Origin: an uncultured Pseudomonadota bacterium
GTDB taxonomy: Bacteria; Pseudomonadota; Alphaproteobacteria; UBA9219
DNA length: 64,000 nucleotides
Direction of reading: 5' to 3'
Assembly (NCBI GenBank): GCA_903824505.1
Contig: CAIJXG010000081.1
Coordinates: 40,044-104,043, forward strand
Position numbers: made by a program. This document shows positions 12,501 to 18,500 of this stretch, piece after piece. Within the stretch, counting starts at the first letter, position 1. Each line of letters begins with the position of its first letter.

Positions 12501-15500
12501 AACACGACCCTTCTGCCGCAAGCTATCATTCAAGATCGCGAAACTTTCATCGATTCGACCACAGGAGGGGCAACGGCGTTTCGAGGCACAAGAGCCGCTT
12601 CGGCACAGGCCACACAACAGGGAGCCATATCTATAATTGTCACAGTGATTCTTATTGTTTTTTACCTTATCATGAAGGCTCACGGGTATAAAGGGTGACC
12701 GACCACGCCTCGAAACTTAAAGGCCTGATGTGGGTGATTGGTGCCTGTCTTTTGGGGGCCTGTTTTGCTCTTGGCCTATCCCCTTTAGCGCATGCCATTC
12801 CGTGGAGCTGGGAAAAGAAGCTGGGGCATGCGCTTGACGCGGCTAACCCTGATCGTGAATGTCACGGTAGCCCCCAAGCTGCAAGGCTTTTAGACAGGCT
12901 GGTTGACCGCATGTATCCGATTCAAGAAGAAGATAAAGCCTTTTCAATTGAGGTGAGGATCGCAAAAGACCCCGCCGTCAACGCTTACGCCACTTTAGGC
13001 GGGCAAATTTTTATCAACGCCGGACTGCTGGAGCAGGCCCAATCTCCCGAAGAAGTTGCTGGAGTCCTCGCCCATGAAATCGGGCATGTCCATCATCGCC
13101 ATATCATGCAGGGTGCGCTGGCCCATTTGTTCACAGCGGAAGGGATTAATATCATTTTTGGATCCCCCTCATCCCTCGCACAAGGCGCGCATTACTTTAT
13201 GACGATGGATTTCAGTCGCGCTCAAGAAGCCGAGGCTGACGAAGACGGTCTGCAGCGCCTTCAGATAGCCCATGTGGATAATAATGGGTTCAAGCATTTT
13301 TTTGAACGTATGGAACGGGAAGGATCTTCCCCCGCCTTTCTCTCGGATCACCCTTCCGGCCGCTCCCGCATAGAAAGAGTGGAAAGATTTTCCAACGCAA
13401 GCCCATCGCCTCTTATGACTCAAGAGGAATGGCTCATCCTTCAGGTCTACTGTCGGTAGCAGTATCAGCCTAAAGACTACTCTTTCGGCTTAGGATTGGG
13501 GGCGGGATCGTCCGAACGCGCTTCCTGTGGAAGGGGCGTTCCATCCCGACGGTGAAGATATTCGGCGATGGCGGCTTGACCAGCCTCCGGATCTTTAAAT
13601 GTCCAGAGGTCGTTCAATGCGCCCTCCATAATCATTGAATAGACGGCTGTTTCGATGGCTTGGCGGACACCAAATTGGGTTGGCTCATTCACCGTAAAGC
13701 CCACTTCGGACTGAAGCAGATTATCGATTGTCAAATATTTCAACGCGTTCAAATCCACAGAGGCCGAGAAGATTGTCTTGGAACTGTTAACAGAAAGAAG
13801 AACCTCGCCCGTTTGAATGTTGGTCGCCCGCAAGTAAACGCCAACGATATCACGGCGATACTGCGCGCTTGCCCCGATACCTAGATAAAGCGCGCCAGCC
13901 CCCCCTGTCAGCACGTTGGAATCGTAGGAAATGATCCCGCCTTCAATCAGCATCCCCCCGTAAAGCATAGGGGGCAGAAGGGGGAGTTTGTCCTTGTTCG
14001 GGCCTAGATACTGCCCCCTCATTGCCTTGATGATTTGTCTTTCCTGCAACAGATTCTTCAGTCCCCCGCGCTCGGCCACACGAAACCATTGATGATTGCC
14101 GGCATCTAAAAGGGCCTTCACCAAAATCGAGTAGCCGCCCTTGGTCACAGCGCTCGAATAATCAGTATAGCTGCTGTTATTCCGAAACTGCCCTGTCTGA
14201 TCTCCGAAATCATACACGACAACGGGGACTTTTTGCTCAGGTTCGGGAAGTTCAGCTAAAAGTTTGCCGGCACGGGTCTGATCCGTCACCTGCGCTTCGG
14301 AAACGACCGCGTTTTCGAACATAAAACCGGCGCAACCAGGAAGGGCGAAGAACAAAGAGAGAAGACAGGCGGATCTAACCCACCGCAGGACGACAGGAGA
14401 AAAAGAAGAAGTCATGAAATCGGCACCTGAATTTGTGTTTTTCCGTTGACCGGATCAAGGATGGTAATGGTAACTATATTTTTTGCCTTACTGTAACTGA
14501 TTATATTTCCTCCCCCTAAATCATAGCTTCCGGCAGTATTGGAGCCGCCAAAAATATCATTGTAAATGCGGGAGCTGATCTGGCTTTCCAACGCCTGAAC
14601 AATCAAAGATGCCGCCGTCGTTTGATTCGAGAAGGGAGAGGGGGTAGTTGGCTTGGTCACACTGCTCATCATCGCCGAGGTATCGGACGGATTAGCCCCT
14701 GAAAACAACGCGGCGTTCTGGCCATGAAACTCTAACGTGCCGGCCAGCGCATCAGACCCTGCAGCAAAAAGGCCCAAAGACAAAAGCGCGCCGAAACATA
14801 GCGAAGAAAAGCGTAGAGACATCACACAAAAGCCCTCCTAATGAATAAACACAAGCCTAACGAAGACCATCCTGCACAGGGGAATCAACCCCTGCCTCGT
14901 CCGTTTGCGCCTTTGGAACTTGTCCCTTTTTTGCCTCTTTTGATTCGTTTTTTTGCCCAAGGGACGCCCCTTGAGCATCATTCTGTTCAATCAGAGCGTG
15001 GCTCCGGCCATAGTCAGTCAAGGACGAATCCTTCAATACCACACCTTGGTAATCCTCACCCCCCTGAGGGGATTCCTGAGCCCCTTGCGTAACGCTTTCT
15101 TCTTTCCCGCCTACAAAAATGGATCCCTTAGGGATTTGCTCGATCACCAGACCCTGCGCCGCCCACCCAGAGCCCCCATCCAGAAGTCCGGCAAGGGCAA
15201 AGAGTACTATAAGGAAGAGTTTGCGCCTTGGGTCCATGACAAAAAGATAATCTCAAAGAGAAAAAGAGGAAGATCTGCCTACCCAACAGAAAACGCTGCC
15301 CCTCCCGATCCCAGCCTCAATTTTGAACAAGATGCACGCTCAGATTACCCCCTGTTGAGGCGTTCTGAGAAACATAGGCATAATTTCCAGATCCATTCTG
15401 GGTCACAGTGGCATCGACCGTGCCGCTGCCACCTGTGAAATACTGGACGATATAGGCGGCATTGCTCCCGCCTGCTCCACCTTCATTCTGATTGATCGTC

Positions 15501-18500
15501 GCCGTGGCATTAACCCCTGTCGTCGTCTGAGAAATTTGGGCATAGTCAAGTGTGCCATTTTGATGAATGGTTCCCGAAGACGGGGTTAGCGAGCTATTCT
15601 GATAGATTTCGGCATACGAATTCAAAGCAGCCACGTCTTGTATTATAAGGGCGGTAGATCCATTCCCATATTGCCCGATGACAGCTGTATTATATGCCCC
15701 GCTTTGGTCAATTTCCGCGAGATCACCCGTTGTTCCAGTCGCTTGGAAGATTCGTGAACTGTCGTGATTCGCAAAAGAAGTCTCGTTGACTGTTGCGACA
15801 GAAGAAGAGCCGTTTTGTGTGACGTCTTCACTGTTAGAATTCCCCAAAAGGTTCAGATTTAACGTGTTGTTAAGAAGCCCCCCTTGGGTAATCTTTGTTG
15901 TCTTATTGCTTCCCGCTTGAGAGAGATTCAAAACTTGGTTGTCCGTGGTTTGCGTAATGATCAAGACGTTATTCGTTCCCGTCTGTTCCAATGGGCTGCT
16001 CACGCCGATCTGATCATTGTTGGCCGTTTGAGTAATGACCAAGGAGTTAGAGCCTGTCCCCGCGCCGTTATGCTGATACGTGTTTGCGACATCTCCATTC
16101 CCCCCCTGATACAACCCGATAGAACTGTTCGTACTTGTCGTGCCCAAGGCCGCGCTTCCCTGCAAGAGGGTGGCGGCATTGTTTGATCCCGCTTGAAGGA
16201 GCGGCTCATTTAAACTTTTACCTGCGAAGTTGCCACTGCCGGTTTGCTCAATGGAAAGACTATTGTCACCTCCTTGTTGATCCAGATAGGCGGTGTTGGC
16301 ATCCGCAAGAGCCGGCCCAGCACCCGAGAGAATGGCAAGCGCACTCACAGTCAAAAGAAGCTTTTTGGAGGTCATGGCACGATCCTTATTGATCAGGAGA
16401 AAAGGGAGCAACCCAAGGCAGGCGGCTAGAACCCTCCTACCCCTCTTTCTCTAGAATCGTCAAGGAAATTATGCACACTTGAGCATTCAGGTCTTATTTT
16501 CTCTGACTCTGAGTTCGCAGCTTGCAAAGCTCCATAGGGACAGCTCCGTCACTTCCGGCATCGATGATTCCGTTTGACGCACTCAGACGGCCCCGTTCTT
16601 AACGAATCGTGCCTTTTGTTCCTTCAACAACCCAAGCCCCATCCTTTTGCTGGATCGATGTAACGCGGCCAACGCCCTCAAGGGTTTCGCCGACGCGCAC
16701 GGGCTTCAATTCGCGTGTCGCACTGCTTGAGGCCACCCATGCCTCTCCTGGGACAGCTGCGCGTAAAACCCATGAAGAAGATGGAAGGGGCTGGCTGCTC
16801 TCCGGCAAGGTAAGAAACCCTGTGCGAGGGGGCGACTGAGGTGTTTCTACAAATTGATGCGCCCGCTCGTGCCTATGATGTTTGGACGCACGATAGGTAT
16901 GGGCGGCCAAAGGCTTTTTTGCCTGCCGCACGTGTGCTGAAGTGTTCCCCGATGCAAGAGGGGATGCTGTCTTCTGCACCTGAAGCTGCTGGTCGATCTT
17001 ATCCAGACGGGCCTGAATATCTTTCAGGGTTTGCGATTCGGCGGGCGAAGATCCCGTCGCCGCTGTTACTGCGGCTTGTCCGACCTGTCCGCTGAGTTTG
17101 TCGACCTGCTTTTGAAGAGTCTCAAGATGTGAGGTGAACGACGCAAGCCGTTGGGTTAGATCAGATGAAGCAGATGCTTGAGCCGCCGTCTGAGCAGGCG
17201 GTGGAAGCTGCGCCGCAACAGGAGCGATTGGCGCAGGGGGAGAAACTGATGGAGGGGCGACAGAAGGAATCGGCGGCAGAGGCAAGGGGGGGGACGCCAC
17301 AGGAGCGACCGCTGGTGAAAGGGGCGGCACAGAAGGTGGCGGCTGGAGCGTTAAGGGGGGCGCTGATGGCGTTGCCGATTCCGCTCCTTCCGAAGGGCCG
17401 CTCAAAGACGCAACCTTAGGCGAAACGCCCGAATCGGAAGGCGGTTTTGCGGGAACAACAGCGCCACTTTCCACTGGAGGGGGGGAGATCATCTGAAGCG
17501 CGGAATCTTCCTTGCTTCCCCCGCCGAATTGCCACCATGCGATTCCGCCGCCAAGCAGAATTAACCCCCCAACAGCCAAAACCACAGGGAGTAAACGACG
17601 ACCAGAGGCGGAAGGCGCGTCTTCCGCAGGCGGCGCAACGGGCTCACCGTGTTCGTCTCCGGATTCCTCATGCGAATCAGCGAATTCAGCCTCTGCCTCT
17701 TCCGAAAGCCCCGCGTGAAAGTCCGAGGACTCGTCGTTCGGGTGACCAGATTCCATACCGTTGGGAGGGGACATAGAAAACTCCAAAAACACAAAAAGCC
17801 ACACTCAATTTCCGTAGGAAGCCGAGGAGGAAACACGGCGCAAAACACGTCTATCAGCTCAGCTGACGCGCCTTTTGCGTGGACAAGACCGTCAAGTCTC
17901 ACAGAGACTCGACTATACCATTAACCAAAAGGTCAGGAAAGCTGTTCGATTCTATCGACCAAAGTACCCACCCCCATAACCGCCAAATCCACCACCCATG
18001 CCGCCTGGAAAACCACCCCCGCCGCCACCTTGTGGGGCGGCATAATTCGGATAAGGAACGGAATTAGACGAATCTTGATATCCGCCCCCCGCCCCATAGC
18101 CTTGCATACCATTAGGCCCCCCTTGGTAGTTAACGGGATAGGGAAGAGACCCGGGTTGGTTTTGAGGGCGCAGCCCACCATAGGGATACGCTGCTTGTTG
18201 CGGATAGCCCATTCCCTCTTGTCCTGCTACAGGCTCATGAACAGGGGCAACGAAGAAAAGCCCCATTGGCGTTCCCGCAGCAACCCGCACCAAGGGTTTT
18301 GTCTGATTGGCCTGATTTTGAAAGAACTGGCTCGCCGTTCGGGATGATTCTTCCGCGCCGCGATAGATCCCCTGCCTGTATCCGTTGCGCGCCGTTGCTA
18401 TAAAGGTCGCGTTGCCGTTTTGGGTAACCGTCTGGGCATTTTGCCCCATCGCCTCGCCCATACCTTCTAGAAAGCCGGCGGCCGCTGGAAGAACCAGACG

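What the first reader, a model, noticed from the sequence alone, without database searches (positions are those of the whole stretch)
13477..16375. Complete curli-type functional-amyloid cluster in an alphaproteobacterium, with a 364-aa multi-repeat CsgA-like subunit and an unassigned secreted gene
The CsgG and CsgF assignments rest on long collinear matches to the E. coli proteins. The curlin-repeat gene is more than twice the length of E. coli CsgA and has about 14 imperfect repeats. No CsgB-like nucleator, CsgE or CsgD is evident. A 126-aa secreted protein of unknown family sits where an accessory factor would. It could be a CsgH/CsgC-like or CsgE-like component, or a nucleator.
Basis: partly seen in the sequence, partly recalled or inferred. 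Interest (0 to 1): 0.5.

Follow-up and report, generated by a model that had tools for sequence, protein, structure and literature searches.

The report
Curli operon with decayed nucleator gene
This is an ordinary curli-type amyloid secretion operon of the kind already known from Alphaproteobacteria, and its "mystery" 126-aa gene is the shrunken remnant of the clade's short (CsgB-position) curlin, which has kept its N-terminal part but lost every amyloid repeat.

Summary
On the minus strand, 13477-16375 carries four co-oriented genes: a long curlin, a 126-aa ORF, CsgF and CsgG. CsgG, CsgF and the curlin all pass Pfam thresholds. The curlin is 352 aa from the likely ATG (364 aa from an upstream TTG). 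It has about 26 eleven-residue half-units, roughly 13 strand-turn-strand repeats.

The 126-aa ORF is real but is not CsgC, CsgH or CsgE. Single-sequence searches find only itself. In uncultured relatives (CsgG 57-78% identical) the slot upstream of csgF holds a 153-186-aa secreted protein with a conserved ~60-aa N-terminal module followed by six curlin half-units. A profile of five such proteins hits the ORF at E 5e-11, but only over the N-module, and the ORF has no curlin units.

It has diverged much faster than its neighbours: 33% identity to the closest relative, against 59% for CsgF and 78% for CsgG. Two other loci show the same repeat loss.

The layout long curlin(s) - short curlin - csgF - csgG recurs in at least ten related loci. 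Absence of csgC/D/E and large repeat numbers are already published for Alphaproteobacteria. Verdict: a new member of a known kind, with one modest new point, the N-module and the recurrent loss of repeats.

The parts
15317..16375 (-). Long curlin (CsgA-like), 352 aa from the ATG at 16375; an upstream TTG at 16411 would give 364 aa. Signal peptide about residues 1-24 (…PALA|DANT). Then about 26 eleven-residue half-units, roughly 13 strand-turn-strand curlin repeats. The protein ends …VHLVQN.
   Evidence: Pfam Curlin_rpt 58.2 bits, E 7.7e-16. NCBIfam CsgA and CsgB models score far below their cut-offs. 14 matrix units >=5 bits against a shuffle mean of 0.8. About 30% identity, collinear over nearly the full length, to the 357-430-aa curlins of related loci. 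PDB 8c50, Pontibacter multi-repeat CsgA, E 5.9e-9. The single-sequence AF2 model is all-beta with 25 strands but low confidence, pLDDT 50.
14857..15237 (-). 126-aa secreted ORF, the truncated descendant of the clade's short CsgB-position curlin. Signal peptide residues 1-26/27 (15157-15237). Conserved N-terminal module about residues 28-83 (14989-15156), with motifs GLVIEQIP and DYQGVVLKDSSLTDYGRSHA. Degenerate Q/K/E-rich tail residues 84-126 with no curlin unit.
   Evidence: No Pfam or NCBIfam hit at E<=1. Word-index and exhaustive phmmer searches find only itself plus an RTX-repeat artefact. A profile of five positional orthologues hits it at E 5.2e-11, the best of 919 six-frame segments of the window, over profile positions 12-108 only. 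BLASTP to the L003 186-aa protein gives 33% identity over 88 aa, E 7e-11. It has 0 curlin units against 4-6 in intact members. It keeps 8 of 11 conserved N-module columns but only 5 of 31 repeat columns. Codon usage is coding-like only in this frame, +0.23 bits per codon. Public pipelines call the gene.
14412..14825 (-). CsgF-like protein, 136 aa from the ATG at 14822 or 137 aa from the GTG at 14825. AGGAGG lies 8-11 nt upstream. Its stop overlaps the csgG start.
   Evidence: Pfam CsgF 37.8 bits, E 2.6e-9, covering 4-132 of 132 profile positions. 41-59% identical to the CsgF-position proteins of related loci. No CsgF chain among the PDB matches.
13477..14415 (-). CsgG-like outer-membrane lipoprotein channel, 312 aa. 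Lipobox-like LPGC with Cys28.
   Evidence: Pfam CsgG 163 bits. E. coli CsgG structures at E about 3e-48 over residues 43-288. The NCBIfam CsgG equivalog gives 177 bits, below its 505 cut-off, and HfaB only 23 bits. 933 relatives at E<=1e-30, the named ones mostly alphaproteobacterial MAGs.
16376..16598 (-). Intergenic region upstream of the long curlin gene. It is the presumed operon promoter region; this is inferred only.
   Evidence: It lies between the dotF/icmG-like stop at 16599 and the curlin ATG. The consensus scan found no sigma-70-like site here and no terminator-like site between the four genes.

Best explanation
The region is a four-gene curli (type VIII secretion) operon of the type shared by a clade of uncultured Alphaproteobacteria: long curlin, short curlin, csgF, csgG.

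Shown:
- Three of the four genes are homologous to CsgA/B-type curlin, CsgF and CsgG.
- All four products have Sec-type N-termini, and CsgG has a lipobox cysteine.
- The operon layout recurs in relatives.
- The 126-aa gene is the positional and sequence homologue of the clade's short curlin. It keeps the signal peptide and a ~60-aa N-terminal module and has lost all six curlin half-units.

Inferred mechanism:
- The 352-aa curlin is exported by Sec, stays unfolded in the periplasm, and crosses the outer membrane through a CsgG channel capped by CsgF. No CsgE gate is involved, as in other Alphaproteobacteria.
- Outside the cell it folds into a ~13-rung beta-solenoid that stacks into fibres.
- The short curlin here can no longer offer a curlin template. 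CsgB-type surface nucleation is probably lost, so fibres would have to self-nucleate or be poorly anchored.
- The 126-aa product is most likely a relic under relaxed selection.
For: - Family assignments.
- Repeat count and its significance.
- Collinear similarity of the long curlin to those of relatives, including shared start (D-x-N-S/T-x-Y-h-x-Q-x-G) and end (h-x-h-x-Q-H/N) motifs.
- Conserved layout in L005-L008, L010, L011, L016 and L017, plus two loci without DNA.
- Short curlins of relatives pass the Curlin_rpt cut-off, and the four intact ones tested score better on the CsgB model than on the CsgA model.
- Homology of the 126-aa ORF to their N-terminal part only.
- Loss of repeats.
- Accelerated divergence: 33% identity to L003 against 59% for CsgF and 78% for CsgG, while intact short curlins of more distant relatives keep 39-59% over their full length.
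- No Shine-Dalgarno motif before its ATG, although csgF and the long curlin each have one.
- L012 shows a similar remnant in a locus that has lost csgF and csgG, so that copy is clearly a relic.
- Published background: Alphaproteobacteria lack csgC/D/E, and CsgA homologues reach 22 or more repeats (PMC3521004, PMC10192328).
Against: - The ORF is intact, has a good signal peptide and coding-like codon usage, and is identical in at least five contigs.
- It keeps 8 of 11 conserved N-module columns.
- The same pattern, module kept and repeats lost, appears in at least two independent lineages. This could mean selection for a repeat-less function rather than decay.
- A second, intact short curlin or a CsgH could lie outside the 64-kb window. 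In L003 a second curlin gene sits downstream of csgG, and in L001 the long curlin is transcribed divergently from csgF-csgG.
- No expression or amyloid data exist.
- The AF2 models were single-sequence and of low confidence.
Confidence: 0.65

Rival explanations
1. Same ancestry, different fate. The 126-aa protein is a functional, repeat-less derivative of the short curlin. Its N-terminal module would be the part that docks to CsgF or CsgG, or that targets the protein for secretion. Freed of amyloid repeats, it would act as a small secreted or surface adaptor, cap or regulator of fibre assembly.
For: The reading frame is intact, with a signal peptide and coding-like codon usage. It keeps 8 of 11 conserved N-module positions against 5 of 31 repeat positions. 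The same pattern occurs in L015, which still has csgF and csgG, and in L012; each of these is closest to an intact member, not to the others. No curated Pfam or NCBIfam model covers the N-module, so it is an undescribed conserved element.
Against: There is no Shine-Dalgarno motif. Divergence is accelerated even inside the module: the most conserved motif, LSNP, reads LKDS here. The L012 copy sits in a broken operon. The L015 repeats look eroded by substitution rather than cleanly removed. There are only three cases and no functional data. The mature part has no predicted structure (inconclusive).
Confidence: 0.22
2. The 126-aa ORF is a CsgC/CsgH-type chaperone or a CsgE-type periplasmic factor too diverged for profile detection.
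For: Its position inside the operon, its size (about 100 aa mature) and its signal peptide fit such factors. Alphaproteobacterial curli loci often carry csgH next to csgA/B (PMC3521004).
Against: There is no hit to any CsgC, CsgE or CsgH model at E<=1, although NCBIfam holds an alphaproteobacterial CsgH model. The ORF aligns instead to the N-terminal part of curlin-repeat proteins that occupy the same slot. Its composition is rich in G, Q, E, S and K, and no beta-sandwich is predicted.
Confidence: 0.04
3. The 126-aa ORF is not a gene at all but a chance open frame in a spacer between the curlin gene and csgF.
For: Single-sequence searches of 5.8 and 1.8 billion proteins find no relative. There is no ribosome-binding motif. 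An overlapping 161-aa ORF exists on the other strand.
Against: A family profile hits exactly this frame at E 5e-11, the best of 919 six-frame segments. The homologues are syntenic. Codon usage is positive only in this frame.
Confidence: 0.06
4. The cluster is not a curli system. It would be another CsgG-family lipoprotein system, such as a Caulobacter-type holdfast anchor (HfaA/HfaB/HfaD).
For: CsgG belongs to a wider CsgG/HfaB family, and a weak HfaB hit exists (E 3.7e-5, 23 bits).
Against: The CsgG model scores 177 bits against 23 for HfaB. A CsgF homologue and a curlin-repeat protein lie in the same operon.
Confidence: 0.03

Closest known systems
Escherichia/Salmonella curli system (csgBAC + csgDEFG, type VIII secretion)
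   Same: It has a CsgG channel lipoprotein (E about 3e-48 to solved E. coli CsgG), a CsgF (Pfam) and a Sec-exported curlin-repeat subunit.
   Different: It is a single co-directional operon rather than two divergent ones. No CsgC, CsgD or CsgE is present in the operon or its flanks. The subunit has about 13 repeats instead of 5. The CsgB-position gene has no curlin repeats. All NCBIfam equivalog cut-offs are missed by a wide margin.
Alphaproteobacterial curli loci described by Dueholm et al. 2012 (PMC3521004)
   Same: It lacks csgC, csgD and csgE. Long, variable multi-repeat curlins are present, with up to 22 repeats reported in that survey.
   Different: No csgH is found next to the curlin genes. 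Instead the clade has a short curlin with a conserved N-terminal module between the long curlin and csgF. I found no description of that module in the two curli papers I read or in Pfam/NCBIfam.
Pontibacter korlensis CsgA 'R15.5' (PDB 8c50; PMC10192328)
   Same: It is a multi-repeat curlin of similar length (363 aa) and the only PDB match to the window's curlin (E 5.9e-9). It is a beta-solenoid with one rung per repeat.
   Different: The Pontibacter repeats are near-perfect. Here they are imperfect, with only 3 stretches passing Pfam individually and 4.6 strong half-units per 100 aa against 6-7 in most relatives. A solenoid fold was not confidently predicted here.
CsgB, the minor curlin or nucleator
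   Same: The intact short curlins of relatives are short and sit in the operon next to csgF. The four tested score better on the CsgB model than on the CsgA model, and their last repeat is rich in K and H.
   Different: They fall far below the CsgB equivalog cut-off (28-35 bits against 165) and carry an extra ~60-aa N-terminal module. The window's copy has no repeats at all.

Membership tests
Curli / type VIII secretion system | CsgG-family outer-membrane lipoprotein channel | tested here: met
   Pfam CsgG 163 bits against a 20.8 cut-off. E. coli CsgG structures at E about 3e-48 over residues 43-288. LPGC lipobox seen in the sequence. The NCBIfam CsgG equivalog cut-off is not reached, 177 bits against 505.
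Curli / type VIII secretion system | CsgF accessory protein encoded next to csgG | tested here: met
   Pfam CsgF 37.8 bits against a 25.8 cut-off, covering 4-132 of 132 profile positions. The gene overlaps csgG by 4 nt. No CsgF chain among the PDB matches.
Curli / type VIII secretion system | Secreted subunit built of curlin repeats | tested here: met
   Curlin_rpt 58.2 bits against a 20.7 cut-off. 14 strong half-units against a shuffle mean of 0.8. PDB 8c50 match.
Curli / type VIII secretion system | CsgB-type nucleator carrying curlin repeats | tested here: not met
   The gene in the CsgB position has 0 curlin units and no Curlin_rpt, CsgA or CsgB hit at E<=1. A short-curlin profile finds no other curlin-repeat frame in the 64-kb window. 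The rest of the genome was not available.
Curli / type VIII secretion system | CsgE, CsgC/CsgH and CsgD | tested here: not met
   None of the eight ORFs in and around the operon (11340-19556) hits these families at E<=1. The whole window was not scanned for them. Their absence is typical of Alphaproteobacteria (PMC3521004).
Curli / type VIII secretion system | Formation of extracellular amyloid fibres | not testable with these tools
   Needs ThT or Congo red binding and electron microscopy of the protein or the organism.
CsgC/CsgH chaperones or CsgE (for the 126-aa ORF) | Profile match or characteristic fold | tested here: not met
   No hit at E<=1 in Pfam or NCBIfam, which includes the model chap_CsgH_alph. 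The single-sequence AF2 model shows only the signal-peptide helix, pTM 0.21, so the fold test is inconclusive.
Clade-specific short curlin (CsgB-position family, defined here) | Signal peptide plus conserved N-terminal module (h-x-I-P-Q-V-P … D-Y-Q-x-x-V-L-S-N-P-x-I-S-E-x-A-R) | tested here: met
   Profile E 5.2e-11 over profile positions 12-108. 8 of 11 conserved columns kept.
Clade-specific short curlin (CsgB-position family, defined here) | Position between the long curlin gene and csgF | tested here: met
   The same order is seen in L005-L008, L010, L011, L016 and L017.
Clade-specific short curlin (CsgB-position family, defined here) | Six curlin half-units and the C-terminal VGDYNHKVKIQNG motif | tested here: not met
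   0 units. Only 5 of 31 conserved repeat columns are kept, 16 are deleted and 10 substituted.
Holdfast anchor Hfa system | HfaB equivalog | tested here: not met
   23 bits against a 300 cut-off.

The most novel reading that the evidence does not exclude
The ~60-aa N-terminal module of this clade's short curlins would be an undescribed docking or secretion-targeting element for the CsgE-less CsgG-CsgF machine. Repeat-less derivatives such as the window's 126-aa protein and L015 would have been retained repeatedly as small secreted regulators or caps of curli assembly, not as relics.
Probability: 0.2. Interest if true: 0.5.

Novelty: new member of a known kind. Interest (0 to 1): 0.3.

Why it matters
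The finding adds little to the known picture of curli diversity. CsgE/C/D-less alphaproteobacterial operons and long multi-repeat curlins were described in 2012 and 2023.

The useful outcome is that an apparent orphan gene is explained as a decayed short curlin. This also defines a conserved operon layout and an unannotated N-terminal module in an uncultured alphaproteobacterial clade.

If the module proves to be the contact to CsgF or CsgG, it would give a handle on how minor curlins are tethered in systems that lack CsgE. The naturally repeat-less variants would then serve as ready-made controls for nucleation experiments.

Tried and rejected
- Word-index search with the 126-aa ORF found only itself.
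- Exhaustive phmmer over 1.84 billion representatives found only itself plus a 1964-aa RTX-like repeat protein. I rejected that hit as a repeat or low-complexity artefact.
- A profile search of the big protein database with the N-module alignment A2 returned nothing at E<=10, even though family members must be in the database. That search was wasted, so the family size is unknown.
- A metagenome scan with CsgG alone found nothing.
- The full-length short-curlin alignment gave 7 loci.
- The AF2 models could only be run on single sequences and were of low confidence. Foldseek of the curlin model against the PDB gave no hit at E<=0.001, only a scatter of beta-helix proteins, so it is uninformative.
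- Promoter and terminator consensus scans gave nothing above shuffle expectation.
- No tRNA or Rfam feature is present in the window.
- No DNA tandem repeats lie in the curlin gene.
- A literature search for curli in Holosporales or Rickettsiales found nothing relevant.
- Considered and rejected: CsgC/H/E identity for the ORF, non-coding spacer, and Hfa holdfast system (see rival explanations).

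
Full report
**What is in the sequence**

Four ORFs lie head to tail on the minus strand between 13477 and 16411.
- 15317-16411 gives 364 aa from a TTG, or 352 aa from the ATG at 16375.
- 14857-15237 gives 126 aa.
- 14412-14825 gives 137 aa, or 136 aa from the ATG at 14822.
- 13477-14415 gives 312 aa.

The csgF stop overlaps the csgG start. The other gaps are about 32 nt and 79 nt. The scan found no terminator-like hairpin between the genes. AAGGA precedes the ATG at 16375 and AGGAGG precedes the csgF start. The 126-aa ORF has no such motif. 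Public gene calls on the same MAG contig (ENA ERZ1426530, 68,957 bp) list products of 352, 126, 136 and 312 aa.

**Family assignments**

- CsgG is assigned by Pfam at 163 bits, E 7e-48. It aligns collinearly to solved E. coli CsgG over residues 43-288, E about 3e-48. It has a lipobox-like LPGC.
- CsgF passes Pfam at 37.8 bits against a 25.8 cut-off and covers almost the whole profile. phmmer against PDB chains returned no CsgF entry, so this assignment is profile-level only.
- The long protein passes Curlin_rpt at 58.2 bits. Its only PDB match is the multi-repeat CsgA of Pontibacter korlensis, 8c50.
- All NCBIfam equivalog cut-offs (CsgG, CsgA, CsgB) are missed by wide margins. These are family members, not orthologue-grade equivalents of the enterobacterial proteins. 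HfaB scores only 23 bits.

**The repeats**

The mature long protein is rich in G, N, T, S and Q. It splits into about 26 half-units of 11-15 residues of the form x-G-x-x-N-x-A-x-h-x-Q, which makes about 13 strand-turn-strand repeats.

A position matrix built only from the curlins of related loci finds 14 non-overlapping units of at least 5 bits. In 500 composition-matched shuffles the mean was 0.8 and the maximum 4. There is no DNA-level tandem repeat, so the repeats are old.

The protein aligns over nearly its full length, at about 30% identity, to 357-430-aa curlins of relatives. It shares their first-repeat motif and their C-terminal h-x-h-x-Q-H/N ending. Its density of strong units is 4.6 per 100 aa. 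That is lower than the 6-7 seen in most relatives but within the range.

A single-sequence AF2 model is all-beta with 25 regularly spaced strands, but its pLDDT is only 50. A fold search with it was uninformative.

**The 126-aa ORF**

It has no Pfam or NCBIfam hit at E<=1. Searches of 5.8 billion sequences (word index) and 1.84 billion sequences (exhaustive phmmer) return only itself and an RTX-repeat artefact. Taken alone it looks like an orphan.

Synteny resolves it. I followed the closest CsgG relatives (57-78% identity; the named ones are MAGs labelled Alphaproteobacteria, Holosporales or Rickettsiales) into their contigs. The gene directly upstream of csgF there is a 153-186-aa secreted protein. 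I read it in L003, L005/L009, L006, L007, L008, L010, L011, L016 and L017. Two further loci without DNA carry a 166-aa Curlin_rpt-marked gene in the same slot.

These proteins share three parts:
- a signal peptide;
- a ~60-aa N-terminal module (h-x-I-P-Q-V-P, then a variable acidic stretch, then D-Y-Q-x-x-V-L-S-N-P-x-I-S-E-x-A-R-x-x-A);
- six curlin half-units ending in V-G-D-Y-N-H-K-V-K-I-Q-N-G, followed by an acidic tail.

The four I scanned in both libraries (L003, L005, L006, L007) pass the Curlin_rpt cut-off and score better on the NCBIfam CsgB model than on the CsgA model, although far below the cut-off. No curated model covers the N-module.

A profile built from five of these proteins, excluding the window, hits the frame of the 126-aa ORF at E 5.2e-11. 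That is the best of 919 six-frame segments of the window. The alignment spans only profile positions 12-108. BLASTP to the closest relative's protein (L003) gives 33% identity over 88 residues, E 7e-11.

The ORF contains no curlin unit, against 4-6 in intact members. Among columns conserved in at least 6 of 7 intact members, it keeps 8 of 11 in the N-module. In the repeat region it keeps 5 of 31, with 16 deleted and 10 substituted.

Codon usage is coding-like in this frame only (+0.23 bits per codon, against 0.16-0.28 for the neighbouring genes). The AF2 model shows only the signal-peptide helix.

The ORF is therefore a real gene or a recent ex-gene. It descends from the clade's short, CsgB-position curlin and has been stripped of its amyloid repeats.

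**Rate and recurrence**

Against L003, CsgG is 78% identical, CsgF 59% and the short curlin 33%, the last over its N-terminal part only. Intact short curlins of relatives whose CsgG proteins are 57-77% identical still share 39-59% over their full length. The window's copy has therefore evolved unusually fast.

Two other members show the same pattern.
- L012 is 128 aa with only two scoring half-units left (one clear curlin unit). Its locus has no csgF or csgG, and an integrase-like gene lies nearby.
- L015 is 168 aa with its repeats eroded by substitution, while csgF and csgG are intact.

Each degenerate copy is most similar to an intact member rather than to another degenerate one. There are therefore at least two independent events, and probably three. 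L001 has csgF and csgG with a divergently transcribed long curlin and no short curlin at all.

**Mechanism**

The homologies, signal peptides, operon layout and repeat loss are shown. The rest is inferred from established curli biology, as summarised in PMC3521004 and PMC10192328.
- The long curlin is Sec-exported and crosses the outer membrane through CsgG capped by CsgF. No CsgE is involved, as is general in Alphaproteobacteria.
- It folds outside the cell into a ~13-rung beta-solenoid that polymerises.
- A CsgB-type nucleator works by presenting curlin repeats as a template. The window's copy cannot do that.

I judge a relic under relaxed selection most likely. The reasons are fast divergence, the lack of a ribosome-binding motif, and the clear relic in L012. 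Fibres would then self-nucleate or be poorly anchored. The alternative is that the N-module has its own role and that repeat-less forms are retained for it. The evidence does not exclude this, and I give it about 0.2.

**Comparison with what is known, and novelty**

Dueholm et al. 2012 already reported that Alphaproteobacteria lack csgC, csgD and csgE, and that CsgA homologues reach 22 repeats. Sleutel et al. 2023 described a continuum of solenoid lengths and solved a multi-repeat CsgA structure. The cluster is therefore a new member of a known kind.

Three modest points go beyond that:
- the conserved layout long curlin(s) - short curlin - csgF - csgG in this uncultured clade;
- the unannotated N-terminal module of the short curlin;
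- the recurrent loss of the repeats.

**Limits**

Only 64 kb of the genome was available, so a second short curlin or a csgH elsewhere cannot be excluded. The family survey rests on 12 members, because the large profile search returned nothing. Taxonomy is inferred from named relatives and from a full-length CcrM-type methylase. There are no expression or amyloid data.

Noticed in passing
window 16599-20736 (- strand): Three Dot/Icm type IVB secretion core genes lie directly upstream of the csg operon on the same strand, in the Legionella icmK-icmE-icmG order as I recall it: dotH/icmK (19504-20736, Pfam E 9e-72), dotG/icmE (17952-19556, NCBIfam E 3e-44) and a dotF/icmG-like gene (16599-17804, weak, E 2e-8). 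This is notable for a putative alphaproteobacterium and hints at a host-associated lifestyle.
   Followed up: partly
window 641-3616 and 7903-11325: Type II secretion or type IV pilus-like genes are present: a T2SSE ATPase (641-2389), a T2SSF protein (2399-3616) and a GspF/PilC-like protein (9973-11325). Unassigned ORFs of 512 and 201 aa lie beside them.
   Followed up: no
window 11340-13459 (+ strand): A 452-aa protein has three YbjQ_1 domains and a hydrophobic C-terminus. It overlaps by 4 nt an M48 metallopeptidase that is BepA/LoiP-like at a weak level. The pair is convergent with csgG. The pair is not seen next to csgG in the related loci examined.
   Followed up: no
window 5364-6506 (- strand): A full-length CcrM-type adenine methyltransferase with a RAMA domain scores 596 bits on the Caulobacter CcrM model. 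This supports an alphaproteobacterial origin for the window.
   Followed up: partly
window 29814-32826 (+ strand): Pyruvate formate-lyase scores 1180 bits, above its cut-off. It is followed by a 246-aa ORF that I did not scan, possibly its activating enzyme. Together they would suggest an anaerobic or facultative metabolism.
   Followed up: no
L012 2969-7015: A long curlin (320 aa) is followed by a 128-aa short-curlin remnant. No csgF or csgG lies downstream. Unrelated genes and an integrase-like ORF (5660-7015) follow instead, so this curli locus appears to have been broken by rearrangement.
   Followed up: partly
L003 1104-3712: The closest relative (CsgG 78% identical) has a different layout: short curlin (186 aa), csgF, csgG, then a second, convergent 176-aa curlin with strong repeats downstream. 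It has no long curlin nearby, so the size and placement of the major subunit change quickly within the clade.
   Followed up: partly
L006 355-2885; L007 1170-3605; L016 174-2834; L017 470-2956: Several relatives carry two or three tandem long-curlin paralogues (198-430 aa) upstream of the short curlin. All start with the same A-D-x-N-S-V-Y-I-x-Q-x-G motif and end in …T-Q-H/N.
   Followed up: partly
window 14953-15438 (+ strand): A 161-aa ORF lies antisense to the 126-aa gene and the 3' end of the curlin gene. Its strand shows no positive coding score in any frame over the part overlapping the 126-aa gene, so it is probably spurious.
   Followed up: partly
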